A DNA stretch of 64,000 bases from a virus (IMGVR_UViG_3300000944_000006:18380-82379); one strand, 5' to 3'; counted from the first letter of the stretch, positions 782-45,156 are shown. Program-made: numbers and translations. The notes: generated by a model not told the origin, from the sequence alone.

Positions 782-1420
782 ATGTCAGCTAAACCATATT
801 TATACACTGTATACAAAACAACAAATTTAATCAATAACAAAATCTATGTAGGCGCTCATAAAACGACAAACCCAGATGATTCTTATTTAGGGTCTGGTGT
901 TTATTTAAAAAGGTGTATTAAAAAATATGGAAAAGAAAATTTTAAAAAAGAAGTTTTGTTTATTTTTGAAACAGAGAAGGAAGCCCTGATAAAAGAAAGT
1001 GAAATAGTAGATGAAAATTTTGTCAAAAGTAAAGAAACGTATAATTTAAAATTAGGCGGTGGTAGAAAATTAGGCACTTCTGGATATAAATTTACGGAAG
1101 AACAGAAAAAGAAAATGTGCATTTCACAGCAAAAAAGATGGTCTAATCTTACAGATGAAGAAAGAATTTTAATCCAAGAAAAAAGAAATCGTATTCCCAA
1201 TAAATTAAAAGGGAAGAAGTTGACAAAAAACCATGCTAAAAAAATTAGCGAAGCATTAAAATCTAAAAACTTATTAACACATAATAGTGTTAAAATATCT
1301 ATTAATGATGAAATATTTCTTTCAATAAATAGAGCAGCAAAGGAACTGGATATTAAACCTACTACAATAGTCGGAAGATTAAAAAATAAAAAATATAGAA
1401 AATATTTTAGAATAGAATAG
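782..1420 (+). CDS. GIY-YIG homing endonuclease (seg-like), C-terminal NUMOD3-like repeats
   Basis: N-terminus LYTVYKTTNLINNKIYVGAHKT...YLGSG has the GIY-YIG architecture. Repeated basic K/G-rich motifs (GYKFTEEQKKKM, KGKKLTKNHAKKISEALK) follow. Start moved from 722 to the ATG at 782, which has an AAGGA upstream. Paralog of 63077..63748. Confidence 0.75.
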   Translation: MSAKPYLYTVYKTTNLINNKIYVGAHKTTNPDDSYLGSGVYLKRCIKKYGKENFKKEVLFIFETEKEALIKESEIVDENFVKSKETYNLKLGGGRKLGTSGYKFTEEQKKKMCISQQKRWSNLTDEERILIQEKRNRIPNKLKGKKLTKNHAKKISEALKSKNLLTHNSVKISINDEIFLSINRAAKELDIKPTTIVGRLKNKKYRKYFRIE

Positions 1421-2878: not shown

Positions 2879-2915
2879 AATATGTTGTGCATTGCAACAG
2901 TTATTTAAAGAATTT
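2836..2915 (-). promoter_or_regulatory. early promoter/leader cassette copy C (TTGCAA-N17-TAATAT, palindrome TGTTGTGCATTGCAACA, conserved leader ...GTAGAAAACGATTTGGGAATCACC-ATG)
   Basis: Homologous over about 80 nt to the cassettes at 41530, 50855 and 30606. The palindrome overlaps the -35 element. The cassette sits immediately 5' of the ATG at 2878. Confidence 0.6.
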
Positions 2916-13988: not shown

Positions 13989-14558
13989 TTAAGGAAGTGC
14001 GTAGAAAACGTGATTTCCTACTTGTTCGATTTTGTGTTTAGGGCTTGCCCAAAATGGGTTTACGTGGTGTGCATGATAGTGTAAAACATCGTTAGGTACA
14101 AGTCTTTCTTTACGATTTTTCTCCAAGGTTTTCATGCCGATACGAATAGAATCTTTCACGGCGTCTGAATATTCGCCATTTGGTGTGAAAGCTTTCTTGG
14201 CTTTCAGTAGGTTAGGGTCATTTTCATTCCACATAGAGAACTGCCAAGGCTGCTTTACAACACCACAAATAGTGTTGGGGTATTTTGGTGAATCCACACG
14301 ATTTAATATTACTGTAGCAATCAATTCTTTTCCAAGGTCTGATTCGCTTCTACCTTCACCCCAAATCGTCATGTACAGGCAGTTTGTTTCGCTGATTTGT
14401 ATGTCAGAAACTTTTGTTTTAACCGCTTCTATAACAGGCGTATATGTCTTCTCTGGGACTTGTGTATATGTCACGTCAGACATCATTGCATACATAAATG
14501 TTGTTAATATTGTTGCAGACACTGTAAACCTATTTACCATTACCATCGTCATAATCAT
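13989..14558 (-). CDS. SleB-type cell wall hydrolase (Hydrolase_2 family) with N-terminal signal/anchor
   Basis: MTIWGEGRSE...ATVILNRVDSPKYPNTICGVVKQPWQFSMW matches the SleB/Hydrolase_2 signature. Hydrophobic N-terminus. Confidence 0.65.
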   Translation of the reverse strand: MIMTMVMVNRFTVSATILTTFMYAMMSDVTYTQVPEKTYTPVIEAVKTKVSDIQISETNCLYMTIWGEGRSESDLGKELIATVILNRVDSPKYPNTICGVVKQPWQFSMWNENDPNLLKAKKAFTPNGEYSDAVKDSIRIGMKTLEKNRKERLVPNDVLHYHAHHVNPFWASPKHKIEQVGNHVFYALP

Positions 14559-14657
14559 ATTCCTTTTTTCTTAACTTGACTAAGAAATATGATATATCAG
14601 CATATAATTTAAAAAGCATTAATGCAACAAAAAAAATAACAGCAATAAAAAACCGTA

Positions 14658-14936
14658 TCATCGTGCCAATATTTCGTATTTTCGTAATATAATTTCATCT
14701 GATGGGATGTAATAATGTGTGATTTCGCTTTTTAGGTTTGTGTATGCAGATAAAGAATGTTTTATTTCAAAATATATAATAGAATTTAAATAGTCTTGTT
14801 CGGATAACAAGCTTCTAAAAATTTCGCTGTGTATATAAAATATTTCTTCTGGGTGGTTTCCTCGGAATCTTCGTTCGTTGTCTTTTCTCCGCGCCATAAA
14901 TCCAGTTGCTTTATATTTAAATTCAAACTTATACAT
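14658..14936 (-). CDS. small protein, FKYK...Y-x-IP-x-D-E-I family member
   Basis: N-term MYKFEFKYKATG, C-term YYIPSDEIILRKYEI. Paralog of the 14936, 15186, 39809, 40068 and 40333 genes. Confidence 0.5.
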   Translation of the reverse strand: MYKFEFKYKATGFMARRKDNERRFRGNHPEEIFYIHSEIFRSLLSEQDYLNSIIYFEIKHSLSAYTNLKSEITHYYIPSDEIILRKYEILAR

Positions 14937-15208
14937 TATATATCCGATATCTTTACGATTTCAATTTCTTCTTCTGGTATTCTAAAGTTTGCCCATTTTT
15001 TATATTCAATGAAATCGCGCTTTAAATGTACATAAAATGTATAATTCTTTTTTATCGTAATATTATGCACGCACCTTGGCCCAAAAGCTGTAGAAAATAT
15101 TATGATACGATACGACTTATACGCATGTTTCATTGTTAATGCATAGCCGCCTACAAGATGTCTTTGTTTAGCAGTAAGTTTGTATTTAAATGTCATAGAT
15201 ATTTTCAA
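14936..15208 (-). CDS. small protein, FKYKLT...IPEEEIEI family member
   Basis: MTFKYKLTAKQ ... FRIPEEEIEIVKISDI. Confidence 0.5.
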   Translation of the reverse strand: MKISMTFKYKLTAKQRHLVGGYALTMKHAYKSYRIIIFSTAFGPRCVHNITIKKNYTFYVHLKRDFIEYKKWANFRIPEEEIEIVKISDI

Positions 15209-15476
15209 TTTTATGAATAGTAATATGGTCTTCAGGAAAGCGATACTTATCTAAAGATATGAAACGGCTATGTTCTTTGTAAAAATTAATCGGATTTTCT
15301 AATGAAAAATGTATATAACATTTTTCATTCACATAATGAATTTTTCTAAATGCATCACTATAAAACGCAATTGTTTTATTAAATTGATGGACAGACTCTG
15401 GAATAGACAATACTTTCCCCATGCTAGTATGTATAATAGCACCTTCTGTTCTATATTTAAATTCTCTTTCAGACAT
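15186..15476 (-). CDS. small protein, same family
   Basis: EFKYRTEG ... YRFPEDHITIHKIENI. Confidence 0.5.
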   Translation of the reverse strand: MSEREFKYRTEGAIIHTSMGKVLSIPESVHQFNKTIAFYSDAFRKIHYVNEKCYIHFSLENPINFYKEHSRFISLDKYRFPEDHITIHKIENIYDI

Positions 15477-15516: not shown

Positions 15517-16245
15517 TTATTTTTTGGCGTTCCAGAACGTTATAAGACGCTTTAACAAAGCCTTTTTATGGTCGTTAATGTTTCCTTCAAACACTTGGAA
15601 CTTGCCATCTTGTATAGACACTAAAATCTTATATTTTTCAACATCAAGGTTATACATTTCATTAATCATAAGAGCATACATAGTACACTGTAGTCTATAA
15701 TCATTAATAAAAATTTGTTTCTTTGGTTTACGAGAATTTTTAAAATCAACAATCGTTACTTCACCGTCAATAATACCTACACAGTCACATGTACCTGCGA
15801 TTTTATATTTGTGCGAATATAAAGGTATTTCTATGCCCATCACTACATCTAAACGCTGTGAAAGATATTCTAGCATAGGCTTGAACATACGGTTTTCGCG
15901 GTCTGTCATGGCTTCGACAGTTTCGCCTAAAAGATATTTTTCACATGCATCATGAAGTTTGTTACCAATACCAGAAGAATCTTCTAAAATTCGAGTAGCT
16001 TCGTGTAATCCCTTGCGTTCATACCAATCGTCTAAAGGCTTACGGTCTTCGTCTGACAGGGATGCAGAAAGTATTGTTGTGACAGAAGGATATGACTTAC
16101 CATCTGGCGTCATATATGTTCTATACGCACCTGTATCATCGCGCACGATAGGTTTTATTTCTAATAGATTCTTTTTAAAATCTTTTTGAACTTTTAGAAA
16201 GACTTCTTTTTCAGAAAGTCGGTTAAGTATCTGATTTAGATTCAT
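15517..16245 (-). CDS. PD-(D/E)xK nuclease (RecB/lambda-exonuclease/Cas4-like)
   Basis: GTCDCVGIIDGEVTIVDFK (D...E-x-x-x-D-x-K) followed by a QCTMY (Q-x-x-x-Y) motif. Confidence 0.55.
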   Translation of the reverse strand: MNLNQILNRLSEKEVFLKVQKDFKKNLLEIKPIVRDDTGAYRTYMTPDGKSYPSVTTILSASLSDEDRKPLDDWYERKGLHEATRILEDSSGIGNKLHDACEKYLLGETVEAMTDRENRMFKPMLEYLSQRLDVVMGIEIPLYSHKYKIAGTCDCVGIIDGEVTIVDFKNSRKPKKQIFINDYRLQCTMYALMINEMYNLDVEKYKILVSIQDGKFQVFEGNINDHKKALLKRLITFWNAKK

Positions 16246-16549
16246 TCTTTGCTGTGTCGTTACTAAACGGTTTTAATTTATACGCTATGTAATAAAAATT
16301 CTTGCGAATAAGCGTTCGCATTTGTATAAAAGAAAGCCCAACAGAAAGCAACACAGCAAAAACATATGCGCCTGTGACGATAGACATGGCTATAAGAAAA
16401 TATGCACAAAGATATGCCATAAAACTTACTATAGGACTTTCGAACATAGCGTCATTCATGACATTAGGTGTTGACTTGTACATACGAAAAGGTTCTGCGA
16501 AAAATCCTACAACTTTTTCTTTGATTAATATTAATCTATCTTTGACCAT
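16223..16549 (-). CDS. membrane protein
   Basis: Multiple hydrophobic helices. Confidence 0.4.
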   Translation of the reverse strand: MVKDRLILIKEKVVGFFAEPFRMYKSTPNVMNDAMFESPIVSFMAYLCAYFLIAMSIVTGAYVFAVLLSVGLSFIQMRTLIRKNFYYIAYKLKPFSNDTAKNESKSDT

Positions 16550-17087
16550 ATGTTATTCCGTGTTTTGTGCCTTTTTTGTTTATAGTAAGAACTTCTCGGC
16601 GCTGTCTATCTTTGTCTGCATCGTAGGACACATGTACCCATCCACTTTGCGGAGAATCTTTGTAATGAAATTCAAGAATAAGTTGGTCAAACACAAGACC
16701 AGAATTTGCGATATGTTGTGCGACATAATAATTATCAAGACCAAGTATTTCAAAATCAACAGCACATCCTTTCATGTGTTGTGAATTTTTAGCACCTTTA
16801 ATTTTTGTGTTAAGTTCTTTGCTACGATACCCAGAAGATATCACAAGTGGTCTTTTATAGAAGTCACGGATAGGCTGTAGAACATATCTACAAAGGTCAA
16901 CAAGTGCTAAAAATTCTTCTTTGGAAGGAATGTTTTCTATACCATGCCTAGATGCGGTCTGTGAAACTAGAAATTCATTCAACCTAAAGTTCTTTGAAAG
17001 GAATGGGTTTTTCTTAAGAAGTTTTTTATATTCCACATCATCATCAGAAAATCTGATATGAGAATAACTATACCTGCGCCCAAACAT
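16536..17087 (-). CDS. zinc D-Ala-D-Ala carboxypeptidase-like peptidase (M15 family)
   Basis: SSGYRS...SQHMKGCAVDFE...WVHVSYD gives the H-D-H zinc ligand pattern of M15/VanY-like peptidases. Confidence 0.6.
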   Translation of the reverse strand: MFGRRYSYSHIRFSDDDVEYKKLLKKNPFLSKNFRLNEFLVSQTASRHGIENIPSKEEFLALVDLCRYVLQPIRDFYKRPLVISSGYRSKELNTKIKGAKNSQHMKGCAVDFEILGLDNYYVAQHIANSGLVFDQLILEFHYKDSPQSGWVHVSYDADKDRQRREVLTINKKGTKHGITYGQR

Positions 17088-20736: not shown

Positions 20737-21100
20737 GTCTTTGCGTAACCGTGTCTACAAATCGAAAATCTTCAAATGTTAATTCGACTGTATGTGAAGG
20801 AAAATTGAAAGATGTGCTATGTATAGTTGACACACAAAGAATAGCTTCAAAATATAAAATAGATTTTTCTTTGTTAAAATGATTTATAACACGTCTTAGA
20901 ATTGAATTTGCGAAGTCAGTGTTCATTTGTTCATCGCTCGTAGGAAAAATATGTGCATAAATCTTGTGCGTACCTACAAAATAACTAACCATAACATTGC
21001 CACTATCTGTAATAATGACATCCCATGCAGTAGAAAAATCTATTTTAAATTTTTGCGGCGTTTCTAACATGGTTGAAATCTTTCTTTTCTTTAAAAGCAC
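20723..21100 (-). CDS. small protein, MYKYKI-family-like (QKFKIDFST)
   Basis: N-terminal region similar to the neighbouring gene. Confidence 0.4.
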   Translation of the reverse strand: MLLKKRKISTMLETPQKFKIDFSTAWDVIITDSGNVMVSYFVGTHKIYAHIFPTSDEQMNTDFANSILRRVINHFNKEKSILYFEAILCVSTIHSTSFNFPSHTVELTFEDFRFVDTVTQRHVQI

Positions 21101-22448
21101 CGTTATTATAAACTGTCGTTAGTTTATTGTCATCAAGTATATCATCTTCGCCTGTTGTATATTCTCCATTTAGATTAACAGATGTCAGAAATCCTTTTTT
21201 GAATTTCTTTGAATTGTTGGTGAATGATTTGAATGCGGCACGGCGTCCACCATCATCAATAAAAGAATTGGCAGAAGACATAAACTGAAACGTGTTTTTC
21301 GAAACATTTTGGTACATGCTTCCGCGCATACACAGCACAAAGTTGTTAATAGATACTTTACTTGCCTTACATAACTTAACAAAATTTTCAAAATCTTTTA
21401 GAGACTGCCAATCATACTGGAACATAATTTTAACACGATGCGAAATGCGATATCCACGGTCTGTTGTTGTCTGGGGGAAAGTTGCCAAAATCTTTTCCAT
21501 AAGCGCAATGACTTCTTCTTGTGTGATGCCGTTACCACATTTAAGATGCACTTTACGTGTTGTATATGATTCTATTTTTTCTTTTAATATTTCGCATATA
21601 TATGTTTCAACAGCATCTTCGGCATTATGTGTGTCAATAGTTAATGCGGTATTATCTGGCGTTTGCTCGCTGTCAAAGCTTTCTAAAAAGTGTTGATATG
21701 CAAGAACTTCGTTTTGAACGCCCCACGACAATGTGACAAGATTGTCATTTCCATTATATCCACTATTATCTGTAAAGAAATTAGAATAAATTTCATTTCC
21801 AATATTTACGGCAGATGTTGCTTCTGTTGTGTCAAAATTTATAAGATGTGCGATAGCTGTTATATCTGCTGTTTCCTTCGAAGACATTTCAGAAAAGCTT
21901 TCATCATGCAGTACAATATCTTCTGGGCCAATATCATCATATCCAATAGACGTTTCTTCGTCTATAATATCTTTTAAAATTTTCTTTATTTCTCGCGAAA
22001 TTGTAGCAACTGTGGATGGTAGCCATATCGCACGTAACAAAGCCTTTTCTATGTGCGACACAAGCCATGCACACTTAGGGTCTGTGTTGATGACTTGGTA
22101 TAAAGGCGTCTTAAACGGTACAACAGACCCTTCTGGCAGGGCTTGTATTTTTATTGGTATAGCGCCGTCATATGTTTTTAAAATATATTCCCATCCTTCG
22201 TAATTAAATTCCATACCAGATTTTTCTGCAACATTTTGTGCAATTTTCAAATCATCTTCTGTGATAGGTTTCGAAAGATGTTGATTTATAAAAAGGTGAT
22301 GTCCTGTATAGACCATTTCCTTAATAGGTTTGTACTTATCGTCAGACGAACCATTTGCTTCACCACACACAGACGCGTGTTCTAATGTTAATTGGTAATG
22401 ACGTGCAGCGTCAAGTTTGTGGAATAATGTGTTAAGAATAATGCTCAT
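21045..22448 (-). CDS. nicotinamide phosphoribosyltransferase (NAMPT/NadV) family protein, divergent; possibly non-catalytic
   Basis: Block EGWEYILKTYDGAIPIKIQALPEGSVVPFKTPLYQVINTDPKCAWLVSHIEKALLRAIWLPSTVATISREIKKIL aligns closely with NAMPT ([74 protein letters not shown]). Where NAMPT has HDFGYRG the phage protein has HDESFSE, and the His247-equivalent position appears to be Asp. Confidence 0.7.
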   Translation of the reverse strand: MSIILNTLFHKLDAARHYQLTLEHASVCGEANGSSDDKYKPIKEMVYTGHHLFINQHLSKPITEDDLKIAQNVAEKSGMEFNYEGWEYILKTYDGAIPIKIQALPEGSVVPFKTPLYQVINTDPKCAWLVSHIEKALLRAIWLPSTVATISREIKKILKDIIDEETSIGYDDIGPEDIVLHDESFSEMSSKETADITAIAHLINFDTTEATSAVNIGNEIYSNFFTDNSGYNGNDNLVTLSWGVQNEVLAYQHFLESFDSEQTPDNTALTIDTHNAEDAVETYICEILKEKIESYTTRKVHLKCGNGITQEEVIALMEKILATFPQTTTDRGYRISHRVKIMFQYDWQSLKDFENFVKLCKASKVSINNFVLCMRGSMYQNVSKNTFQFMSSANSFIDDGGRRAAFKSFTNNSKKFKKGFLTSVNLNGEYTTGEDDILDDNKLTTVYNNGAFKEKKDFNHVRNAAKI

Positions 22449-24391: not shown

Positions 24392-24468
24392 TGGTACGCG
24401 AGGCAAGATTCGAACTTGCGATAGTTCCGTTATGAGCGGAAAGCTTTAGACCACTTAGCTACTCGCGC
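24392..24468 (-). tRNA. tRNA-Met or tRNA-Ile2 (anticodon CAU), CCA encoded
   Basis: Hand-folded cloverleaf: acceptor GCGCGAG/CTCGCGT, anticodon stem TTCCG/CGGAA, loop CTCATAA, T-arm GCAAG-TTCGAAT-CTTGC. 77 nt. Not initiator-like. Confidence 0.7.
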
Positions 24469-24529: not shown

Positions 24530-24604
24530 TGGCATGCCCGACAGGACTTGAACCTGTGACCCCAGATTAAAAATCTGATGTTCTACCAACTGAACTACGG
24601 GCAT
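24530..24604 (-). tRNA. tRNA-Lys (anticodon UUU)
   Basis: Acceptor ATGCCCG/CGGGCAT, D-arm GTTC-AGTTGGTAG-AAC, anticodon stem TCAGA/TCTGG with loop TTTTTAA, T-arm ACAGG-TTCAAGT-CCTGT, discriminator G + CCA. Confidence 0.7.
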
Positions 24605-27816: not shown

Positions 27817-28157
27817 TTTATAATAATTTCATGCATCGGTAAAAACCACGCGTTAGGTTCTCCGTTTTCATATCTAGGCAATTGGTTATAATAAATAGTA
27901 TCACAAAGTACAGGTGAATTATGTAATTTTTTCAGCACTTTATTAATTGCGTTAATATCACACTTAAAATAGATATTTTTCTCTCGGTGGTCGTTAAAAG
28001 AAATTATAGGCAATATAGTATCTACGCCCTTACGACTTTTGTGGAATCTAAAATAAATTCTTTTACCCAAATTGATGTCAAAAACCCATTCGTAAATACC
28101 ATCAGAATAAAAAGCGTCTGGACTATATAATTTAACATTAACCTTATTCATGTGCAT
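27813..28157 (-). CDS. hypothetical small protein
   Basis: ORF in the array. Confidence 0.4.
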   Translation of the reverse strand: MHMNKVNVKLYSPDAFYSDGIYEWVFDINLGKRIYFRFHKSRKGVDTILPIISFNDHREKNIYFKCDINAINKVLKKLHNSPVLCDTIYYNQLPRYENGEPNAWFLPMHEIIIK

Positions 28158-28533
28158 TATCCAAGATTTTTACAATTCTTCCAACAGTATTTGCGCCATC
28201 CCATGTTCTACATTTTCCTAAACATTCTTCAACAACGTTTATACGTTTTCCGCTTCTAAGAAATTCTTCTATTACATTAGGTGGTAAACTACACTTAAAT
28301 AAAATCGTATATTCGACACTTTTTACGTGGGTTTTATCTAACATAAAATTTTTTAATTTTCCATATGTGAGTGGCGATATATAAAAATCAAATGTATTAT
28401 ATTCTTCCAGACCTTTTCCTACCATAGTTTCTATGACATGAGTTTGTGTATCGCCAGAATCTAATTCTGTCGTGATATAGCTATTCTCTATGGAAGTTAT
28501 ATTTATTTTATAGTTATGTAACATCATCACCAA
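28144..28533 (-). CDS. hypothetical small protein
   Basis: ORF in the array. Confidence 0.4.
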   Translation of the reverse strand: MVMMLHNYKINITSIENSYITTELDSGDTQTHVIETMVGKGLEEYNTFDFYISPLTYGKLKNFMLDKTHVKSVEYTILFKCSLPPNVIEEFLRSGKRINVVEECLGKCRTWDGANTVGRIVKILDNAHE

Positions 28534-29412: not shown

Positions 29413-29799
29413 CTATTCGTTATATACTGTAATACCGCTTCTTTCATCAACAATCTTGATTATATTACCTGTCGGCATTTGACCGAAAGAATAAGAATTT
29501 GTCTCTGGCGTTTCTAATATGTTTAAGCGGCGAGAGATTTTCTCGTCTCCTGTCTCAAAATATCCAATAATGTGGTCTTTGTGCATATCACATTCAAAGT
29601 ATAATGTATATTCGCCCGTAATTTTATCAATAGATTCAAATAAAGAAACTCTTTTATAGTCATCAAAATAAAAATCAATAATATTTGTATCTCGATGTTT
29701 TTTGTAACTATCGCTGTAGCATTCTATAAACTTTAAAGAATCTTCATCAGAGTAGATACTTAGACTAATAGACGTTATTTTTATTTTATACTTGTACAT
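29413..29799 (-). CDS. small protein, MYKYKI family
   Basis: MYKYKIKITS. Confidence 0.45.
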   Translation of the reverse strand: MYKYKIKITSISLSIYSDEDSLKFIECYSDSYKKHRDTNIIDFYFDDYKRVSLFESIDKITGEYTLYFECDMHKDHIIGYFETGDEKISRRLNILETPETNSYSFGQMPTGNIIKIVDERSGITVYNE

Positions 29800-30606: not shown

Positions 30607-30695
30607 AACATTTTCTCCATTTTTGCTACGAACTATAATTATCACACTATGTTGTGTATTGCAACACTTATTTTGATTTATTTTTAAATTTATCT
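30606..30695 (-). promoter_or_regulatory. early promoter/leader cassette copy D (TTGCAA, palindrome TGTTGTGTATTGCAACA)
   Basis: A 34-nt stretch AAATAAATCAAAATAAGTGTTGCAATACACAACA is identical to copy B (50855..). The leader is homologous to copies A and C. Confidence 0.6.
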
Positions 30696-31373: not shown

Positions 31374-31428
31374 AAATTACGCATAGTGATATCCTTTTCT
31401 GCTAATGTTTAAATCTTTTTACAAAATT

Positions 31429-31499
31429 TGGAGGAATACTAGGGACTCGAACCCCATGCTTTAAGGATTGAAAGCCTTAGCAAACCCGCGTTGTATTCC
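31429..31499 (-). ncRNA. tRNA-like element with non-canonical structure (7-bp acceptor GGAATAC/GTATTCC, T-arm GGGGTTCGAGTCCC, CCA end, short D-arm, apparent 8-nt anticodon loop CTTTCAAT)
   Basis: Hand folding gives a perfect acceptor stem, canonical T-arm and encoded CCA, but only 11 nt for the D region and the stem TAAGG/CCTTA closing an 8-nt loop. Confidence 0.4.
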
Positions 31500-35102: not shown

Positions 35103-35741
35103 TCAAACTATATTTGGCATGTCGTTATAAAAATCTACAAAGACATCATATACGTCTGCAAGAGCAACAAAATCACAAGACGCATCATCTATACCATCAC
35201 TGTTTAAATCTGCTGTGCTATTAGTTGTCACAAGTATTCCTAAAGGTTCTCCATATTCAGAAACAACAGGCGAACCAGACATTCCACCACCTACAGGCTG
35301 ATAATATATATGTTCATAGGCGTCATGCGACAATATAAGTGGTGGATTTTCCATTTTGGCTATCCAAGTAGGTGTTACATAACCATCAGAACCAGAAACA
35401 TCTCTTTTGTAATGAACGCGCATAACACGTTCTGAAAGATGCCCTGAAGCATGGGGGTATCCCCACGTATAAAGCCTTTCCCCGCGTTTTGGTTCGCGTG
35501 GTCTAGCCATAGAAGATAAATTACAACCGATTAAAGCTGCGTCTATAACACCTGTTCCTGCCATTATTTCTCCGCTCACAAATGGTGGTAGTTTACGTTC
35601 TTGTTCTTTTAAAACATGCATAGCAGTTACCCAACCACCTGCCCATTGCCAATATGTTCCAGACGCTTCTACACGCTTTGATGCGTGGAAATGCTTTTTT
35701 ATTATAAATCCAAAGTCTTCAGGTCTTTTCATCACAATCAT
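35103..35741 (-). CDS. trypsin/chymotrypsin-like serine peptidase
   Basis: Candidate catalytic His in TAMHVLKE and an oxyanion/Ser motif GGGMSGSPVV (GDSGGP-like). Locally GC-richer codon usage. Confidence 0.5.
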   Translation of the reverse strand: MIVMKRPEDFGFIIKKHFHASKRVEASGTYWQWAGGWVTAMHVLKEQERKLPPFVSGEIMAGTGVIDAALIGCNLSSMARPREPKRGERLYTWGYPHASGHLSERVMRVHYKRDVSGSDGYVTPTWIAKMENPPLILSHDAYEHIYYQPVGGGMSGSPVVSEYGEPLGILVTTNSTADLNSDGIDDASCDFVALADVYDVFVDFYNDMPNIV

Positions 35742-36021
35742 ATTTATAAATTATTTTTACAATACGTGTTTCATCAACAAAATAAATTCTTTGTAAAAAG
35801 TTTTCTATGCACAGTTGGTTCCAAAATTTAGTCGATGGCCCCATTCCTGTATTAATAAGTTCAAGCATTTTTTCGTCGTGAATACTATCTAATGGTATCG
35901 TTAAGGGTGTGCCCTGAATGTTCAAATTTATTTGAACATGTGGACTTGGATATGAAAAATTATCAGAAGTAGAAAGATATATACTATGTATGTCTTCAGT
36001 TTTAATATAAAATTTATACAT
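35719..36021 (-). CDS. small protein, MYKYKI family (MYKFYIKTED)
   Basis: Start set at the family methionine. Confidence 0.4.
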   Translation of the reverse strand: MYKFYIKTEDIHSIYLSTSDNFSYPSPHVQINLNIQGTPLTIPLDSIHDEKMLELINTGMGPSTKFWNQLCIENFLQRIYFVDETRIVKIIYKYDCDEKT

Positions 36022-36352
36022 AATCAATACCAACAATAGTTTTCATATTTGCGAAATAGATTCTTTTAATACCATCTGGTAATTTAATTTTATGCCATGC
36101 CTCATTATCTTGTGGTATAGGAGTTTGTTGCAACAACATACTTTGAAAAATTGGACATAATATGTGTTCAAACGATAATGTAAAATCTAATTGGCATTCT
36201 GTTTTCGTGCGTATATTTCGTGTAATTATATTTGCAGTATTTTGACTATATACATAGTTATTAGCAGACGCCAACCATATATACGGGTCGATATTTTTTC
36301 GTTGTATATAAAATTTCTCATAGTAGCAGTCATTTGTCATAGAGTTTCCCAT
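36014..36352 (-). CDS. hypothetical small protein
   Basis: ORF. Confidence 0.4.
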   Translation of the reverse strand: MGNSMTNDCYYEKFYIQRKNIDPYIWLASANNYVYSQNTANIITRNIRTKTECQLDFTLSFEHILCPIFQSMLLQQTPIPQDNEAWHKIKLPDGIKRIYFANMKTIVGIDYV

Positions 36353-36702
36353 ACAACATGGTCTATATCAGCATCAAGAAATAAACCATACGAATCTGAA
36401 GAAAATTCGTTTAATCTTGGATTAGATAAAAATATTTTTTTAAAGCCAAGATTATTTGAGTACACATATCTCCAATTTGTATCAGTATATCCAATTTTAC
36501 ATTTTGAATGTAAAAAGCCATTTAAAAATTTTCTACTATATAAGCATCTAATGGAAAATTCATTAAGACCGCCATGAAATATGACTATATTTTCATTTAC
36601 GTCAGAATAATTTTTATTTGTTGACGTAGAAATCAAAAATTTATTTACAATTCTACCATCTATAGTAAATTTTTTCGGTATATCTGTTATACTATGCTTC
36701 AT
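36337..36702 (-). CDS. hypothetical protein (121 aa)
   Basis: ORF. Confidence 0.4.
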   Translation of the reverse strand: MKHSITDIPKKFTIDGRIVNKFLISTSTNKNYSDVNENIVIFHGGLNEFSIRCLYSRKFLNGFLHSKCKIGYTDTNWRYVYSNNLGFKKIFLSNPRLNEFSSDSYGLFLDADIDHVVWETL

Positions 36703-36750
36703 AATATCTACGCTCTCACAGCATGGTCTAAGTTAGTTAATAAATTATTT

Positions 36751-37061: not shown

Positions 37062-37138
37062 TGGCACACCTAACAGGACTCGAACCTGTAACATCCTGCT
37101 TAGAAGGCAAGCACTCTATCCAGTTGAGTTATAGGTGT
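37062..37138 (-). tRNA. tRNA-Arg (anticodon UCU), CCA encoded, followed by a U-run
   Basis: Acceptor ACACCTA..., D-loop TAACTCAACTGGATAGAGT, anticodon stem CTTGC/GCAGG with loop CTTCTAA, T-arm GGTTCGAGTCC. 77 nt. TTTTTTTATAGG follows the 3' end on the minus strand. Confidence 0.7.
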
Positions 37139-39145: not shown

Positions 39146-39712
39146 ATGAGCAATAAAACATTTTGCGGGATAGATTATTCATACACATCCCCCGCGTTCA
39201 CGCTATACGACTCTTCTACAAAATTGTATAAGACACATTATCTTACAAAAACAAAGCGATGTCAAGGTATTTTCAAATCTCCTAAAGGAAATTACGAACT
39301 TATTGGGGAACCTTCTTATGAAGGCATTATAAACGGCTCACAGCGTTACTACACGATTGCTAAATGGGTTTTAGAAGAACTACAGCCCTATGACATACAA
39401 ACCATTCTTATAGAAGGTTATAGCCTTGGGTCTAAAGGTTCGCGGGTCTTTGATATCGCAGAAAATGCGGGTATGTTAAAATACGCTTTGCTTGATAGCG
39501 GATATGATATTGTAGTTAAATCACCAAAAGAAATCAAAAAATGGTTTTGTGGTAATGGTAGTGTAGGGAAATATACCGTCGAAAAAGTTTTTAATTTAAC
39601 AACTGGTTTTGACATACGCGATGTTATTCTATCTAAAGCAGAAAATCCAGTTTCGGATATATGCGACAGTTTTGCTATGTGCGAAATGGCAAGGTCTGTT
39701 GACAAACTTTAA
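39146..39712 (+). CDS. RuvC-like Holliday junction resolvase
   Basis: N-terminal FCGIDYSYTSP (catalytic Asp), TILIEGYSLG (Glu), C-terminal DICDSFAMCEMA (Asp pair). RuvC/YqgF-fold acidic residue order. Confidence 0.55.
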   Translation: MSNKTFCGIDYSYTSPAFTLYDSSTKLYKTHYLTKTKRCQGIFKSPKGNYELIGEPSYEGIINGSQRYYTIAKWVLEELQPYDIQTILIEGYSLGSKGSRVFDIAENAGMLKYALLDSGYDIVVKSPKEIKKWFCGNGSVGKYTVEKVFNLTTGFDIRDVILSKAENPVSDICDSFAMCEMARSVDKL

Positions 39713-39753
39713 ATTTTAATTTAAGATTCTTCTTAATAGGAGAATTCAAAGAT

Positions 39754-39822
39754 ATGTCGCGCGAACATATTAATGTATTCGAAATTCCAGAAGATGAAAT
39801 TGTACATCATGTCGAAGCATAG
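39754..39822 (+). pseudogene. 22-codon minigene retaining only the C-terminal family motif (MSREHINVFEIPEDEIVHHVEA), preceded by a strong SD
   Basis: AGGAGAA 9 nt before the ATG. The peptide ends with the IPEDEI signature of the FKYKLTG family, whose intact members follow directly downstream. Confidence 0.4.
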
Positions 39823-40087
39823 ATACAAATATAAATTGACGGGGGAAATTGAGGAAGGCATTTTTAGTAATTTCTATATGTGGTGCAGTTCGAATAACAC
39901 AGGCAATAAAAATATATTTTTAGGCATTAAAGAATTAGAATCATATAATCTTGGAATTTCCACAGTGTATTTTACTTTGCCGAAAACCATTAATTCCTAT
40001 ATAGCACATGATAAATCTACTATTGTCACTTATTCAATACCAAATGGTGTTGTAGAAATTATATCGGTTGTATCACATGATTCATAA
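39809..40087 (+). CDS. small protein, FKYKLTG...Y-x-IP family member
   Basis: MSKHRYKYKLTGEIEEG ... YSIPNGVVEII. Start set at the ATG at 39809. Confidence 0.5.
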   Translation: MSKHRYKYKLTGEIEEGIFSNFYMWCSSNNTGNKNIFLGIKELESYNLGISTVYFTLPKTINSYIAHDKSTIVTYSIPNGVVEIISVVSHDS

Positions 40088-40355
40088 TTACAAAGTAACA
40101 TGCGAAGTGCAACAACTTAACCGTGGAGTAATTTATCTATATCTCAATGTTTATAAGAATGGTGTTGGTAATAAAATGATTTGTATAGATTCTAATTTAC
40201 TAGAACCATATATTAACATAGGAAACGTAATTTTATATTTTATCACCAAAAATAAAATTCATACTTACTACAGTAAATCGAAAAGTGGTATAACATATGA
40301 TGTTTATACAATACCAGATGACGACATAAGGATTGTCCGATATGTTCAAATATAA
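40068..40355 (+). CDS. small protein, same family
   Basis: C-terminus YDVYTIPDDDIRIV. Confidence 0.5.
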   Translation: MYHMIHNYKVTCEVQQLNRGVIYLYLNVYKNGVGNKMICIDSNLLEPYINIGNVILYFITKNKIHTYYSKSKSGITYDVYTIPDDDIRIVRYVQI

Positions 40356-40629
40356 ATTGACAGGTATTATAACAGATTGTGATGGTGAAACATCCTTATA
40401 CCATTATGTCTCTGAAGAAAAAGAGATATATGTTGATTGTCCCAAATTGCAAAATATACACACAAACAATTCAAAAGTAACTGTATATTTTACAACACCA
40501 AAGTTTATAGAATCTTATTTAAATACAAGCGACAGCGACAGTAATTATGATGTTTATACAATACCAGAAGACGAAATGGAAATTATGTCAAGCGATATCG
40601 TCATAGATAAATGGGAAGATGGTAGTTAA
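40333..40629 (+). CDS. small protein, same family
   Basis: MSDMFKYKLTGIITDCDG ... YDVYTIPEDEMEIM. Confidence 0.5.
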   Translation: MSDMFKYKLTGIITDCDGETSLYHYVSEEKEIYVDCPKLQNIHTNNSKVTVYFTTPKFIESYLNTSDSDSNYDVYTIPEDEMEIMSSDIVIDKWEDGS

Positions 40630-40976
40630 ACGTCTTTTTCTTCGGCAGATTTCTTAGAAGCTTCTTTTAGGTCTTTATAATCTTGCTCACACCAAAATCC
40701 CCTAATATATAAAAGCCTGTCAACATGCTTTGCACCACACTTAATTCTGTATCCGCCTGCAATCTTGTTATGCACAATCATATGACAGTCTTTACAAAGT
40801 GTTATGCCATTATCTACATCAAACCTTAATTCAGGACTGTATGTGGCGTGTTTAATGTGATGTGCATGGCGATTTTGTTTGGAACCACAGCACTGACAAA
40901 CTTTGTCACGCTTAACAACAGCAACTTTCCACATTCTATATTCTTTGGTTTTTCTCCAAGCTTGTTTACTAGACAT
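40626..40976 (-). CDS. HNH homing endonuclease
   Basis: CQCCGSKQNRHAHHIKH...NGITLCKDCHMIVHN forms an HNH zinc-binding/catalytic motif. Confidence 0.7.
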   Translation of the reverse strand: MSSKQAWRKTKEYRMWKVAVVKRDKVCQCCGSKQNRHAHHIKHATYSPELRFDVDNGITLCKDCHMIVHNKIAGGYRIKCGAKHVDRLLYIRGFWCEQDYKDLKEASKKSAEEKDV

Positions 40977-40978
40977 AT

Positions 40979-41245
40979 TTACGACTTCCCATAAAGAATT
41001 TCATATGCGGCGATAAGATGGTCGACGGCATTTTCAAATTGATATTCAGAAGATATACCCGCTTTACGAATACGGGCTTTGATGCTTTTTAAATCTTTAA
41101 TAGATTTATTTTTTACAGCGAAGTCAATAGAACGATACATGCCCGAAAATTCATGCATGTTGTTAGGTGTTTTAGATGCTCCCAGACGTTCGTTAATTTC
41201 ACGAACTTCATCAAGCCTATGTTTAAGTGTATTGTTATTGCTCAT
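40979..41245 (-). CDS. hypothetical protein (88 aa)
   Basis: ORF. A TATAAATA box (41251-41258, minus strand) lies 5 nt upstream of the ATG. Confidence 0.45.
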   Translation of the reverse strand: MSNNNTLKHRLDEVREINERLGASKTPNNMHEFSGMYRSIDFAVKNKSIKDLKSIKARIRKAGISSEYQFENAVDHLIAAYEILYGKS

Positions 41246-41529
41246 ACACCTATTTATAGTGAATCTATTCTATGTTAGAACAGTTTAAGTACGCTTGTAC
41301 CAGAATAACGTCCAACACGGCGGTTTTTACGGCGGCGGTAAGCAGAAGATACACGCGGCTTATCAGATACAACTGTTTTATTGTTGTTATTCTGGCTAGG
41401 TGTTTGGTTTTTCATCTTTGCATGTCCTTTTTAAAATATTAAAGATTGATTAAGGATATACTTATAATTTCATCACGAAAAAAAGTAGATACGTTTTGGC
41501 AATACAGCTATGCATTTATGCAAGGTGAA

Positions 41530-41602
41530 AATCAAAATAAATGTTGTAATGCACAACATACTGTGATAGAATGATTGTAGAAACGATTTGGGAGAATCAA
41601 AT
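41530..41602 (+). promoter_or_regulatory. early promoter/leader cassette copy A (TTGTAA-N17-TAGAAT, palindrome TGTTGTAATGCACAACA, leader ATGATTGTAGAAACGATTTGGGAGAATCAAAT-ATG)
   Basis: -35 at 41544-41549, -10 at 41567-41572. The 32-nt leader with GGGAGAA is identical to that of copy B. Confidence 0.65.
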
Positions 41603-42448: not shown

Positions 42449-43945
42449 TTATATTTTCTCCCACCTATCCGTTATAGGGCGTCCTACAGGGGCCATAGAA
42501 AAGTTTTTGTATCCATACTTAGATATAAGATTAACAATGTTCTTAACGTACTCATGATTGCAGTCAGACACCAAACGATTTACTAAACCATGTTCATCAA
42601 TATATTCCAGTGTTAAAACACAATGGTCGTAATCATGTGAATGGTCGTCATTAATTGAACATACAGTAAGACGTAGCGCATCTTTGGGGAAGTTGTAATC
42701 CTGTCTAAGACGATAATAAACTTCCAATGCCATGTCTTCGCAGTTATGTCCTAAAATACCATTTTCAAAAACAAATGTAGACGTTCCTGCTACTGTTATA
42801 TCGTAACACTTCTTCACGCCATTAGAAGTAATATCTTTAGTTTTTATCCTAGTTTGCCCAAGACCTTCAAAACCATAGTCTTTTTGATGTGAAGAATTTT
42901 TGTTATATATTACTCTATATATAGGCTGTGTTCCAGAACCGCCATGTTTCTCTTGCGTGTAAATTCTAGCAGACTTACCAACACGCAGTAAAGCGGCCTG
43001 TATCCATTCAGCAAATTTTTTACATGACGTTGAATATGTTTTATCAGGTTCCGTACCCCATCCACCGTTACTAGATTTTACATGATAATGTCCATCACCT
43101 AAAAAATATCCTTCAAGTATATAATTTAGACATACTTCTGGAAGATTTAAGTATTTGTCCATACGAATATCAAAAGAATTTTCCTTAAGTGGTTTTAAGA
43201 AATCCTTAAACCAAGACTTCAAAAATCTTACACAAGGAACACCAGAATTATTTTTAAATAATGTATAAGGAATTTTATATTTATCTAAAATAGGAAGAAT
43301 AAATTCAGGAATGTCATGTCCAGATGTAGAAACTTTACTAATTTTATTACTTCCCTGCGGACGGTCTACCCATCCTTCTGCAAGATAATGTCCCACAACA
43401 AACCAAATATCGTCATCAAGAACATTCTCAATTTCTGTGTATGGTAGATTTAAAGCACACGGAACATATTCCCAATGAACACTCTTTCCATCAATAATTT
43501 CTTTCAATTTTCTTTTTGTGTATCCGTTTTGTTGTTGTTTTTCTTTAGACCACATATTATGATTTTCTGTAACAACAATTTCATTTCCGTTATGAAACGG
43601 TACAGTAAAGGTTTCTAAATTTCCTTTATCCATTTTATTTATGATAACTTTATCAATATATTTTTTTTCGACAAAATCATAAGACATACAAACATCACCT
43701 ATTTGTGCATCTTTGATTGGAACAGCTACATATTCATCATTACGTTTTAACCATATTTTTTGATTTTCTTCTACACAATCACCTAATAGAATAGGTCTGC
43801 CAAAGAAATCCACATCAACAGTAGGACGCGTCCAGTGTTCAGGTACTGCCCAATTATTTTGGTCTGAACGCCATACGAAAATAGATTTAACATCCTCATG
43901 TACTTTTTTAAAAGTAGCTACCTGTGCGTGTGTAAGTTTTAACAT
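42449..43945 (-). CDS. intein-containing protein: 153-aa extein resembling a papain/transglutaminase-like Cys hydrolase, split by a 345-aa LAGLIDADG intein
   Basis: Intein blocks: C at N-junction (LLGD/CVEENQ), VVTENHNMW (T-x-x-H block B), two LAGLIDADG motifs (FVVGHYLAEGWV, ILEGYFLGDGHY), C-terminal YDITV...FENGILGHN followed by C. Spliced extein junction GDCEDMA (G-x-C-x-x-x-A) plus downstream HSHDYDH suggests a Cys-His-Asp hydrolase. Confidence 0.6.
   Translation of the reverse strand: MLKLTHAQVATFKKVHEDVKSIFVWRSDQNNWAVPEHWTRPTVDVDFFGRPILLGDCVEENQKIWLKRNDEYVAVPIKDAQIGDVCMSYDFVEKKYIDKVIINKMDKGNLETFTVPFHNGNEIVVTENHNMWSKEKQQQNGYTKRKLKEIIDGKSVHWEYVPCALNLPYTEIENVLDDDIWFVVGHYLAEGWVDRPQGSNKISKVSTSGHDIPEFILPILDKYKIPYTLFKNNSGVPCVRFLKSWFKDFLKPLKENSFDIRMDKYLNLPEVCLNYILEGYFLGDGHYHVKSSNGGWGTEPDKTYSTSCKKFAEWIQAALLRVGKSARIYTQEKHGGSGTQPIYRVIYNKNSSHQKDYGFEGLGQTRIKTKDITSNGVKKCYDITVAGTSTFVFENGILGHNCEDMALEVYYRLRQDYNFPKDALRLTVCSINDDHSHDYDHCVLTLEYIDEHGLVNRLVSDCNHEYVKNIVNLISKYGYKNFSMAPVGRPITDRWEKI
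42743..43777 (-). mobile_element. LAGLIDADG homing-endonuclease intein (about 345 aa)
   Basis: Boundaries computed from junctions ...PILLGD|CVEEN and ...GILGHN|CEDMA. Confidence 0.6.
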
Positions 43946-44817: not shown

Positions 44818-45156
44818 TTACAAAAACTTCTTAAGGATAGAAGATGTTTTCTTAGTGAGAACAATATCACTATATCTTTTGTTGTTATATTCAAAAAGCA
44901 TAGCTGTTCCGCTATGACCTTTAACACCTAAAAAATATTTTTCACCCACTTCTAAAACAACTGAATTTTTATTTTCTTCTACTTTGTCACCTTTAAAATT
45001 TTTAAAACGAATTGGTTTCCCTACACGACCTTTGTTTAATTTCACATACATGTCGCGTAAATCTAAGTCTGTTTTAATGTTTTCTCTCAAAACGTCTTCA
45101 TCGTCATTATTTGATGAACGCATTTCTACAAGATGTTGTTTAATATTCTTTGTCAT
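44818..45156 (-). CDS. putative capsid-targeted internal protein 1 (N-terminal MTKNIKQHLVE/MR leader)
   Basis: N-terminus conserved with the 45376 and 45671 genes and ends in L-x-E, the T4 prohead protease cleavage motif. Confidence 0.5.
   Translation of the reverse strand: MTKNIKQHLVEMRSSNNDDEDVLRENIKTDLDLRDMYVKLNKGRVGKPIRFKNFKGDKVEENKNSVVLEVGEKYFLGVKGHSGTAMLFEYNNKRYSDIVLTKKTSSILKKFL

What the first reader, a model, noticed from the sequence alone, without database searches (positions are those of the whole stretch)
14658..15476. Expanded family of small proteins (N-terminal F/Y-K-Y-K-L-T-G, C-terminal Y-x-IP-E/D-D/E-E-I-x-I) in two tandem arrays
Three adjacent genes here and three at 39809-40629 (opposite strand) share both terminal motifs: YYIPSDEIIL, FRIPEEEIEI, YRFPEDHITI, YSIPNGVVEI, YTIPDDDIRI and YTIPEDEMEI. 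That makes six intact paralogs in 64 kb plus one decayed copy. This level of expansion is unusual for a phage and suggests a diversifying family (host-range, anti-defence or decoy functions). I do not recognise the family.
Basis: seen in the sequence. Interest (0 to 1): 0.65.

Follow-up and report, generated by a model that had tools for sequence, protein, structure and literature searches.

The report
Fast-evolving small OB-fold phage paralogs
An uncultured T4-like phage carries six diverged copies, plus one stump, of a roughly 90-residue protein predicted to be a small OB-type beta-barrel; the family is real and fast-evolving and is confined to a tiny phage lineage, but it looks like ordinary phage accessory-gene expansion and its function is unknown.

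Summary
Three adjacent genes at 14658-15476 (- strand), three at 39809-40629 (+ strand) and a 22-codon stump at 39754-39822 form one protein family. Profiles built from one array find the other array's members (E 2e-9 to 4e-3), and each beats 1000 composition-matched shuffles.

No described family matches (Pfam, PHROGs, NCBIfam, PADLOC). Searches of 5.8 billion and 1.84 billion proteins found only the six, plus three divergent members on two short contigs from related phages, again beside the RuvC-like gene.

The shared terminal motifs are strands beta1 and beta5-turn-beta6, and residues 9-48 are hypervariable. pI ranges from 4.2 to 9.8.

Array B and an HNH gene are absent from the same site in three related contigs. 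An orthologous pair has ten times the dN of the adjacent RuvC gene at equal dS.

Best reading: a lineage-specific accessory binder family, expanded by local tandem duplication and translationally coupled. The target is unknown, and anti-defence or host-range roles remain speculation.

The parts
15186..15476 (-). A3, 96 aa family member (MSEREFKYRTEG ... YRFPEDHITI); first gene of array A, 40 nt downstream of the PD-(D/E)XK exonuclease gene
   Evidence: ORF. B-set HMM E 5e-6. Beats all 1000 shuffles.
14936..15196 (-). A2, 86 aa family member (MTFKYKLTA ... FRIPEEEIEI), pI 9.8; its ATG start overlaps the end of A3 by 11 nt
   Evidence: B-set HMM E 4e-3. It is the most divergent member, and its centre is not detectably similar.
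14658..14936 (-). A1, 92 aa family member (MYKFEFKYKATG ... YYIPSDEIIL); its start shares 1 nt with the A2 stop, and its stop overlaps (ATGA) the start of a 43-aa membrane ORF
   Evidence: B-set HMM E 9e-5.
39754..39822 (+). Stump of a family member: a 22-codon ORF, MSREHINVFEIPEDEIVHHVEA, keeping only the beta5-turn-beta6 motif. It has a canonical AGGAGA Shine-Dalgarno 10 nt upstream, and its stop lies 9 nt past the B1 start, so it is probably translated as a coupling leader.
   Evidence: Sequence. HMM E 0.009-0.1 in leave-one-out searches. An 18-nt DNA repeat is shared with B2 and B3.
39809..40087 (+). B1, 92 aa family member (MSKHRYKYKLTG ... YSIPNGVVEI)
   Evidence: A-set HMM E 2.5e-4. 31-35% identical to B2 and B3.
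40077..40355 (+). B2, 92 aa family member (MIHNYKVTCE ... YTIPDDDIRI); its start overlaps the end of B1 by 11 nt
   Evidence: A-set HMM E 6e-7. A 32-nt stretch is 94% identical to B3.
40342..40629 (+). B3, 95 aa family member (MFKYKLTG ... YTIPEDEMEI), pI 4.2; its start overlaps the end of B2 by 14 nt. This is the protein modelled with confidence.
39713..40976 (.). Segment (stump, B1-B3 and a convergent HNH endonuclease gene at 40626-40976) that is absent between the RuvC-like gene and its downstream neighbours in related contigs L001, L002 and L004
   Evidence: Synteny by blastp. L004 ORFs. HNH by PHROGs.
39146..39712 (+). RuvC-like resolvase gene, directly upstream of array B on the same strand. 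Family members also flank its orthologue in L003 and L005.
   Evidence: phrog_159 E 5e-25..
15517..16245 (-). PD-(D/E)XK exonuclease gene, directly upstream of array A on the same strand (context)
   Evidence: phrog_298 E 3e-59.

Best explanation
These are six diverged paralogues, plus a truncated seventh, of a lineage-specific, cytoplasmic protein of about 90 residues that folds as a small OB-type beta-barrel.

The two 'terminal motifs' are structural. F-K-Y-K-L-T-G is the first half of strand beta1. Y-x-I-P-E-D-E-I-x-I is strand beta5, a tight acidic turn and the last strand. Together with the conserved beta4 block (v-Y-F ... I-x-x-Y) they make up one conserved side of the barrel. The rest of beta1, beta2, beta3 and the first helix (residues 9-48) are almost free to vary, in sequence, length and charge.

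The family grew by local tandem duplication at two plastic sites of a T4-like phage genome. Each site lies just downstream of a recombination nuclease gene. The copies are expressed as translationally coupled units with overlapping stop and start codons.

I infer that they are non-core accessory proteins that share a constant face and use the variable face to bind different partners, which could be host or phage proteins or nucleic acids.

Shown here: family, predicted fold class, copy history, patchy distribution, fast protein evolution. Inferred: binder function, diversified specificity, accessory role.
For: **Family.** Cross-array HMM hits and shuffle controls support it.

**Conservation map.** Invariant or near-invariant positions are M1, K3, Y4, K5, T7, I29, Y49/F50, I56, Y59, I67, Y72, I74, P75, D77 and I81. 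Positions 9-48 are variable and hold most of the larger indels.

**Charge.** pI ranges from 4.2 (B3) to 9.8 (A2).

**Local duplication.** B1-B3 cluster together, A2 and A3 cluster together, and the two L003 copies cluster together. B2 and B3 share a 32-nt stretch that is 94% identical.

**Translational coupling.** Gene junctions overlap by 1-14 nt, and the stump ORF has its own AGGAGA site.

**Accessory status.** Array B and the HNH gene are missing at the same site in L001, L002 and L004. L003 and L005 carry two divergent members on the other side of RuvC. There is no member in 24 IMG/VR relatives, in 50,697 GenBank phages, or detectably in 1.84 billion representative proteins.

**Fast evolution.** For P0014 against P0016, dN is 0.093, versus 0.009 for the adjacent RuvC at equal dS (0.166 and 0.159). 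Fisher p = 4e-7. The 14 replacements spare residues 1-17, 54-67 and 83-91.
Against: - No partner, ligand or phenotype is known, so the binder idea rests on fold class and variation pattern only.
- A simple 'strands conserved, loops variable' test failed (Mann-Whitney p = 0.69). The contrast is between sequence blocks, not between secondary-structure classes.
- Omega for the orthologue pair (0.56) is not significantly below 1 (p = 0.19). Purifying selection is therefore argued from intact ORFs and conserved blocks, not proven.
- The structure is a prediction from a six-sequence alignment.
- Synteny for array A could not be examined in relatives.
Confidence: 0.5

Rival explanations
1. They are single-stranded DNA or RNA binding helpers (SSB/PriB-like OB proteins) that work with the adjacent recombination nucleases, the RuvC-like resolvase and the PD-(D/E)XK exonuclease.
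For: - Each array lies immediately downstream of a nuclease gene on the same strand.
- Family members also flank RuvC in L003 and L005.
Against: - No Pfam SSB or other nucleic-acid-binding model matches.
- B3 is strongly acidic (pI 4.2, net charge -12) and pI varies over 5.6 units.
- The beta2-beta3 face, which binds nucleic acid in classical OB proteins (established knowledge), is the least conserved part.
- Relatives with the same RuvC gene lack the array.
- Six copies are not needed for one helper function.
Confidence: 0.2
2. They are potempin-like inhibitors: small OB barrels that each block a specific enzyme with protruding loops. The target could be a co-encoded enzyme (nuclease or cell-wall hydrolase) or a host defence nuclease or protease. 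This is a special case of the best explanation.
For: - Potempins are a small family of enzyme-specific inhibitors, three of them minimal OB barrels, each encoded next to its target (PMC9890683).
- Array A lies between an exonuclease and two cell-wall hydrolase genes. Array B lies beside RuvC and HNH genes.
Against: - Potempins are secreted lipoproteins, whereas these proteins have no signal peptide.
- No peptidase gene is co-transcribed directly downstream.
Confidence: 0.12
3. Each triplet encodes three subunits of one hetero-oligomeric OB complex, in the manner of RPA or CST. That would explain the exact threes and the translational coupling.
For: Two arrays of exactly three genes, with overlapping stop and start codons. 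A conserved face could serve as an oligomerisation interface.
Against: - There is no positional orthology between the arrays. The B genes cluster with each other, not with an A counterpart.
- Relatives carry two copies, not three.
- A stump shows array B once had a fourth copy.
Confidence: 0.08
4. They are neutral or decaying duplicates with no function, carried along with mobile DNA such as the HNH gene.
For: - Omega of 0.56 is not significantly below 1.
- One copy is already truncated.
- The site is gained and lost among relatives.
Against: - Six ORFs of 86-96 codons remain open in 34% G+C DNA despite only 22-39% identity, which implies long divergence without stop codons.
- The same blocks stay conserved in all copies and in the L003 and L005 relatives, with synonymous codon variation.
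- Start/stop overlaps are preserved.
Confidence: 0.07
5. The shared termini are a low-complexity or compositional coincidence in AT-rich DNA, and there is no family.
For: The proteins are rich in F, Y, N, K and I, as expected for 34% G+C. Several pairwise BLAST scores between arrays A and B are weak.
Against: - Cross-array profile E-values reach 2e-9.
- 0 of 1000 shuffles reach the real scores for any member.
- Motif spacing is constant at 61-67 residues, and residual similarity remains in the centre.
- The alignments are collinear over the full length.
Confidence: 0.01

Closest known systems
Potempin A (PotA) of Tannerella forsythia, a minimal OB-fold peptidase inhibitor (PDB 8b2n; PMC9890683)
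   Different: No sequence similarity (16% identity). Potempins are secreted outer-membrane lipoproteins of a bacterium, co-transcribed with a peptidase. The phage proteins have no signal peptide, sit beside nucleases, and have no known target.
Single-stranded-DNA-binding OB proteins (bacterial SSB, PriB, mitochondrial Rim1/mtSSB, phage SSBs)
   Different: No match to SSB or other OB Pfam models. There is no acidic C-terminal tail motif. The canonical binding face is the hypervariable part. Net charge runs from -12 to +9. Copy number is six, and the genes are absent from close relatives.
ORFan accessory genes of the hyperplastic regions of T4-type phages (Comeau, Arbiol and Krisch; PMC4122927, PMC2839356)
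   Same: Small genes without homologues, packed between conserved core genes. They are gained and lost between related phages, and mobile endonuclease genes lie nearby. The window's core genes are most similar to Kyanoviridae and Ackermannviridae-type phages.
   Different: Here one ORFan family is amplified to six copies at two sites. The repeated promoter-like element of this genome, which is reminiscent of PeSL cassettes, does not flank either array.

Membership tests
OB fold (five-stranded Greek-key beta-barrel) | Strand order b1-b2-b3-helix-b4-b5, with a helix between b3 and b4 | tested here: met
   The AF2 model of B3 (pLDDT 87) gives E2-13, E16-24, E27-32, H34-38, E45-52, H56-59, E69-73, E80-88. 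There is one extra C-terminal strand. This is a prediction, not a solved structure.
OB fold (five-stranded Greek-key beta-barrel) | Superposes on solved OB-fold domains | tested here: met
OB fold (five-stranded Greek-key beta-barrel) | Glycine or beta-bulge in strand b1 that lets it bend between the two sheets (Murzin 1993, from memory) | tested here: inconclusive
   G is at position 8 of b1 in 4 of 6 paralogues and in the L003 and L005 members (A2 has A, B2 has C). The bulge geometry could not be inspected.
SSB-type ssDNA-binding proteins (Pfam PF00436 and relatives) | Sequence match to the family model | tested here: not met
   No Pfam, NCBIfam or PHROGs match shared by members. No significant hit to PDB sequences.
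SSB-type ssDNA-binding proteins (Pfam PF00436 and relatives) | Conserved basic and aromatic binding face on b2-b3 | tested here: not met
   Residues 9-48 (b1 C-terminal half, b2, b3, helix) are the least conserved. pI is 4.2-9.8.
SSB-type ssDNA-binding proteins (Pfam PF00436 and relatives) | Binds single-stranded DNA | not testable with these tools
   Needs gel-shift or similar assays.
Potempins | Lipoprotein signal peptide and outer-membrane anchoring | tested here: not met
   The proteins begin directly with strand b1 (M-x(0-4)-F-K-Y-K). There is no hydrophobic leader or lipobox.
Potempins | Co-transcribed with the target peptidase gene immediately downstream | tested here: not met
   The downstream neighbours are a 43-aa membrane ORF followed by a SleB-like hydrolase (array A), and a convergent HNH gene (array B).
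Potempins | Sequence relationship | tested here: not met
   16% identity in the structural alignment. No profile hit to PDB sequences.
Hyperplastic-region accessory ORFans of T4-type phages | Lies between conserved genes and is variably present among related phages | tested here: met
   Array B and the HNH gene are absent at the RuvC 3' flank of L001, L002 and L004. Array A could not be checked.
Hyperplastic-region accessory ORFans of T4-type phages | No homologues outside a narrow lineage | tested here: met
   Only the six, plus P0014-P0016 from two short contigs. None in IMG/VR loci or GenBank phages.
Hyperplastic-region accessory ORFans of T4-type phages | Flanked by repeated promoter/stem-loop cassettes (PeSLs) | tested here: not met
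   The genome's repeated promoter-like element has four copies, none next to either array.

The most novel reading that the evidence does not exclude
The family is a phage-encoded, in-genome diversified OB-barrel 'binder library'. A constant face docks to a common partner or oligomerises. The hypervariable beta2-beta3 face of each paralogue neutralises a different host factor, for example distinct defence nucleases or sensors of phage recombination intermediates. That would make it a new class of multi-specific anti-defence proteins.
Probability: 0.12. Interest if true: 0.7.

Novelty: new member of a known kind. Interest (0 to 1): 0.35.

Why it matters
If the binder reading is right, the six paralogues form a natural series: one small stable scaffold carrying very different surfaces (net charge -12 to +9). 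That would be a compact set to screen for inhibition of host defence or DNA-processing enzymes. It would also be a clear case of a phage diversifying a binding domain by tandem duplication within its own genome.

As it stands, the finding mainly adds an undescribed OB-type protein family. It also documents an accessory locus in an uncultured T4-like phage lineage that is gained and lost among relatives and whose protein sequence changes ten times faster than its neighbour's. This is useful, but it is not surprising for the plastic regions of such genomes.

Tried and rejected
- **Near-identical DNA in GenBank phages:** none found for either array region.
- **Family libraries:** Pfam, PHROGs, NCBIfam and PADLOC gave only isolated weak hits to single members (phrog_13841 E 0.008; PDC-S15 E 2.5e-4). 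No hit is shared by members, so I treated them as chance.
- **Exhaustive profile search:** it returned two extra proteins, P0007 and P0008. Both are long repeat proteins whose many weak stretches add up (an Ig-like-repeat surface protein and a repetitive translation), so I rejected them.
- **The search for related loci with the family alignment:** this failed because no block was conserved enough. Single neighbour proteins found no close relative in IMG/VR.
- **Degenerate N-terminal motif scan of IMG/VR:** 33 loci, none with a family member.
- **First structure model (A1 first):** poor, pLDDT 66. I used it only as weak corroboration.
- **dN/dS between paralogues:** not attempted, because synonymous sites are saturated at 22-39% amino-acid identity. 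An orthologous pair from relatives was used instead.
- **Promoter and terminator scans:** counts around both arrays are not meaningfully informative (promoter-like sites are not above shuffled controls). No timing class can be assigned.
- **'Strands conserved, loops variable':** tested and not supported (p = 0.69). I replaced it with the block description.
- **T4 internal-protein-like arrangement** (a shared N-terminal capsid-targeting peptide on otherwise unrelated proteins, from memory): considered and rejected. Here the N-terminal motif is strand beta1 of a shared fold, and the C-terminus and centre are conserved too.
- **RNA elements:** Rfam finds only three tRNAs in the window.

Full report
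**1. What is there**

The window has 33.7% G+C. It is packed with small genes, mostly on the - strand: about 129 putative ORFs of at least 40 codons by a crude greedy ORF call.

At 14658-15476(-) lie three consecutive ORFs:
- A3, 15186-15476
- A2, 14936-15196, using the ATG that gives MTFKYKLTA
- A1, 14658-14936

At 39809-40629(+) lie three more:
- B1, 39809-40087
- B2, 40077-40355
- B3, 40342-40629

Between the RuvC-like gene (stop at 39712) and B1 lies a 22-codon ORF at 39754-39822, MSREHINVFEIPEDEIVHHVEA.

Neighbouring family genes overlap by 1-14 nt: A3/A2 by 11, A2/A1 by 1, B1/B2 by 11 and B2/B3 by 14. A1 overlaps the next gene by ATGA. The stump ORF has a canonical AGGAGA site 10 nt before its ATG, and it stops 9 nt after the B1 start. 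I read both arrays as translationally coupled units, and the stump as a leader ORF that still feeds ribosomes to B1. That last point is an inference.

**2. Is it more than chance?**

Yes.
- Pairwise BLAST gives 31-39% identity among B1-B3, 27% for A2 against A3, and 22-27% between arrays over nearly full length.
- An HMM built only from B1-B3 ranks A3, A1 and A2 first, second and fourth among non-self hits in 981 six-frame segments of the window (E 5e-6, 9e-5, 4e-3); one unrelated segment (36340-36732) scores marginally above A2. The HMM from A1-A3 finds B3, B2 and B1 (E 2e-9, 6e-7, 2.5e-4). Leave-one-out HMMs recover every member (E 7e-5 to 3e-13). The alignments are collinear over the whole length.
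- None of 1000 composition-preserving shuffles of any member reaches its real score against the other array's HMM.
- The two motifs are always 61-67 residues apart. With both motifs removed, the centres still score at p = 0.003-0.015 for five of six; A2's centre is not detectably similar.
- Codons within the motifs vary synonymously between copies (TTT/TTC, TAT/TAC, ACT/ACA/ACG, ATA/ATC/ATT, GAT/GAC). The constraint is therefore on the protein.
- No other segment of the window belongs to the family.

**3. Distribution**

No curated library knows the family (Pfam, PHROGs, NCBIfam, PADLOC).

A profile search of 5.8 billion clustered proteins returned only the six, all from one 151,219-bp contig. 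An exhaustive HMMER scan of 1.84 billion representatives added only two repeat-protein artefacts. tblastn of B3 and A3 against 50,697 GenBank phage records found nothing.

Relatives were reached through the neighbouring RuvC-like gene, with these results.
- **L001 and L002** (a 160,891-bp contig and its fragment; RuvC 59% identical). RuvC is followed directly by a - strand gene homologous to window 40979-41245.
- **L004** (RuvC 63% identical). RuvC is followed directly by a small Arg-rich ORF resembling window 41275-41415.
- **Consequence.** The stump, B1-B3 and the HNH gene (39713-40976) behave as an insertion or deletion at this site.
- **L003 and L005** (RuvC 61% identical). Nothing lies downstream of RuvC, but two tandem, overlapping, divergent family members lie on the other side. 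P0014/P0016 are 91 aa (MFKYKIEG ... CVVYFESP ... KIKHIEIL). P0015 is 118 aa. These members keep the beta1 and beta4 blocks but not the I-P-E-D-E turn.
- **More distant relatives.** Twenty-four IMG/VR genomes of about 155-164 kb with 30-34% RuvC identity have no member. A degenerate scan of IMG/VR for the N-terminal motif found none either.

The nearest named phages for the neighbouring core genes are as follows.
- For the RuvC-like gene: Pelagibacter phage Mosig (Kyanoviridae), Ackermannviridae such as Serratia phiMAM1, and Vibrio phage YC.
- For the exonuclease: Ralstonia phage RSP15 and T4-like cyanophages.

All are at 33-37% identity. Mosig has the same primase-Nrd-RuvC gene order but no array. 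The window therefore comes from an uncultured, AT-rich, T4-like myovirus lineage.

**4. Structure**

With B3 as target and the six-sequence alignment, AlphaFold2 gives pLDDT 87 and pTM 0.76. The elements are b1 (2-13), b2 (16-24), b3 (27-32), a short helix (34-38), b4 (45-52), a helix (56-59), b5 (69-73), a 3-10 turn (76-78) and b6 (80-88).

Foldseek against the PDB (using the weaker A1 model) and against BFVD also lists OB proteins, but without significance. I conclude that the fold class is OB-like, and that no specific structural family can be named.

Potempin A is described as the minimal five-stranded OB barrel. It inhibits its peptidase through surface loops, and it belongs to a family of inhibitors each encoded next to its target (PMC9890683).

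**5. Where the conservation sits**

I mapped alignment A2 onto the B3 model. The conserved positions fall into three blocks:
- M1, K3, Y4, K5, T7, (G8), the first half of b1
- Y49, F50, I56, Y59, covering b4 and the following helix
- I67, Y72, I74, P75, D77, I79, I81, covering b5, the turn and b6

One isolated invariant residue, I29, lies in b3.

Residues 9-48 (the rest of b1, b2, b3 and helix 1) are nearly unconstrained and contain most of the larger indels.

A plain strand-versus-coil comparison shows no difference (p = 0.69). The right description is therefore 'conserved blocks versus a variable block', not 'core versus loops'.

In the OB topology the strand order is 1-2-3-5-4-1 (established knowledge). 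The conserved blocks (b1 N-terminal half, b4, b5) are neighbours and form one side of the barrel. The variable b1 C-terminal half, b2 and b3 form the other side, which is the usual ligand-binding face. This is an inference, because the model coordinates could not be inspected.

In b1 both the inward-facing residues (F, Y, L) and the outward-facing ones (K, K, T) are conserved, and the b5-b6 turn is acidic (E-D-E). That suggests a shared exposed surface or cross-strand salt bridges.

Net charge ranges from -12 (B3, pI 4.2) to +9 (A2, pI 9.8). No member has a signal peptide or a hydrophobic segment (sequences).

**6. Evolution**

B1-B3 group together, A2 groups with A3, A1 stands alone, and the two L003 genes group together. 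The arrays therefore grew, or were homogenised, locally. They did not arise by copying a triplet.

B2 and B3 share 32 nt at 94% identity at the C-terminal motif, and B1 and B3 share 25 nt at 84% at the N-terminal motif. This is compatible with recent duplication or gene conversion. No long DNA repeat links arrays A and B or flanks them.

For the orthologous pair P0014 (L003) and P0016 (L005), dS is 0.166 and dN is 0.093, giving omega 0.56. The adjacent RuvC genes of the same two contigs have dS 0.159 and dN 0.009, giving omega 0.057. The tenfold dN excess is significant (Fisher p = 4e-7). Omega below 1 for the family gene is not significant (p = 0.19).

All 14 replacements fall outside residues 1-17, 54-67 and 83-91.

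**7. Context**

*Array A.* It follows a PD-(D/E)XK exonuclease gene (phrog_298, E 3e-59). Downstream are a 43-aa membrane ORF and a SleB-like cell-wall hydrolase (Pfam Hydrolase_2). An M15 peptidase and a 108-aa membrane protein lie just upstream of the exonuclease.

*Array B.* It follows the RuvC-like gene on one of the few + strand islands and abuts a convergent HNH gene.

*Wider genome.* It also carries two intein-LAGLIDADG insertions, several other paralogue pairs and a four-copy promoter-like element. This matches the plastic, mobile-element-rich periphery described for T4-type genomes (PMC4122927). Promoter-like site counts near the arrays are not above shuffled controls, and terminator-like hits give no clear signal, so no timing class can be assigned.

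**8. Interpretation**

*Shown.* This is a real, undescribed family confined to a narrow lineage. Its predicted fold is OB-like. It has conserved structural blocks and a hypervariable block. It was amplified locally, its genes are translationally coupled, array B is present or absent among relatives, and its protein sequence changes fast.

*Inferred.* I infer non-core accessory proteins that share one face and bind different partners with the other. I put about 0.9 on the descriptive part and about 0.45 on the binder and accessory mechanism, giving 0.5 overall.

*Rivals.*
- ssDNA or RNA helpers of the adjacent nucleases (0.2). The charge spread and the variable canonical face weaken this reading.
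- An RPA-like three-subunit complex (0.08). There is no positional orthology between the arrays, relatives have two copies, and the stump implies a former fourth copy.
- Neutral decay (0.07).
- Chance similarity (about 0.01), which is refuted.

**9. Novelty and verdict**

The family is new at the sequence level, but the phenomenon is a familiar one: ORFan paralogues in the plastic regions of a large T4-like phage, built on a very common small fold. Interest is moderate to low at 0.35. The most novel reading, an in-genome diversified OB 'binder library' against host defences, gets about 0.12 probability.

Noticed in passing
window 54322-57135(-) and 42449-43945(-): Two intein plus LAGLIDADG insertions. 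One is in the ribonucleotide reductase large subunit (937 aa; intein around residues 303-635). The other splits a protein whose 154-aa homologue in relative L001 (Peptidase_C93-like) is uninterrupted.
   Followed up: partly
window 2883-2899(-), 30650-30666(-), 41542-41558(+), 50873-50889(+): A promoter/operator-like element in four copies. Its core is the imperfect palindrome TGTTGCAATGCACAACA, inside a TTGCAA-17 nt-GATAAT-like promoter. In three copies a shared leader and GGGAGA ribosome site follow. 0 of 100 shuffles give four matches. It is reminiscent of the PeSL cassettes of T4-type phages, but it does not flank the arrays.
   Followed up: partly
window 40626-40976(-): A stand-alone HNH endonuclease gene, convergent with B3 (stops overlap by 4 nt). 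It is absent at this site in relatives L001, L002 and L004, so it is probably a mobile endonuclease that came or went with array B.
   Followed up: partly
window 41275-41415(-); L004 1105-1245(-): A 46-aa arginine-rich ORF (ending ...RR.R..Y.G...KLF) is conserved between the window and relative L004. In L004 it abuts RuvC directly. Function unknown.
   Followed up: no
window 782-1420(+) vs 63077-63748(-); 28144-28527 vs 29413-29799; 35719-36021 vs 36014-36352: Other paralogue pairs in the same window (37%, 28% and 26% identity). Gene duplication is therefore common in this genome and not special to the reported family.
   Followed up: no
window 44818-45156(-), 45165-45374(-), 45376-45669(-): Two otherwise dissimilar small proteins share an N-terminus, MTK(N/K)I..HL.E.R, and 46 nt of DNA at 85% identity. 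A 69-aa predicted lipoprotein (lipobox LGC) lies between them.
   Followed up: no
window 13989-14558(-), 14530-14661(-), 16223-16549(-), 16536-17087(-): A lysis-like cluster surrounds array A. It comprises a SleB-like hydrolase with an N-terminal membrane anchor, a 43-aa membrane ORF, a 108-aa membrane protein and an M15 peptidase (endolysin-like).
   Followed up: partly
window 24392-24468(-), 24530-24604(-), 37062-37138(-), 31424-31454: Three tRNA genes: Met, Lys(ttt) and Arg(tct). A 31-nt stretch at 31424-31454 resembles a tRNA 3' end but was not called as a gene, so it may be a tRNA remnant.
   Followed up: no
window 21045-22448(-): A nicotinamide phosphoribosyltransferase gene (phrog_448, E 2e-60). 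This is an auxiliary NAD-salvage gene.
   Followed up: no
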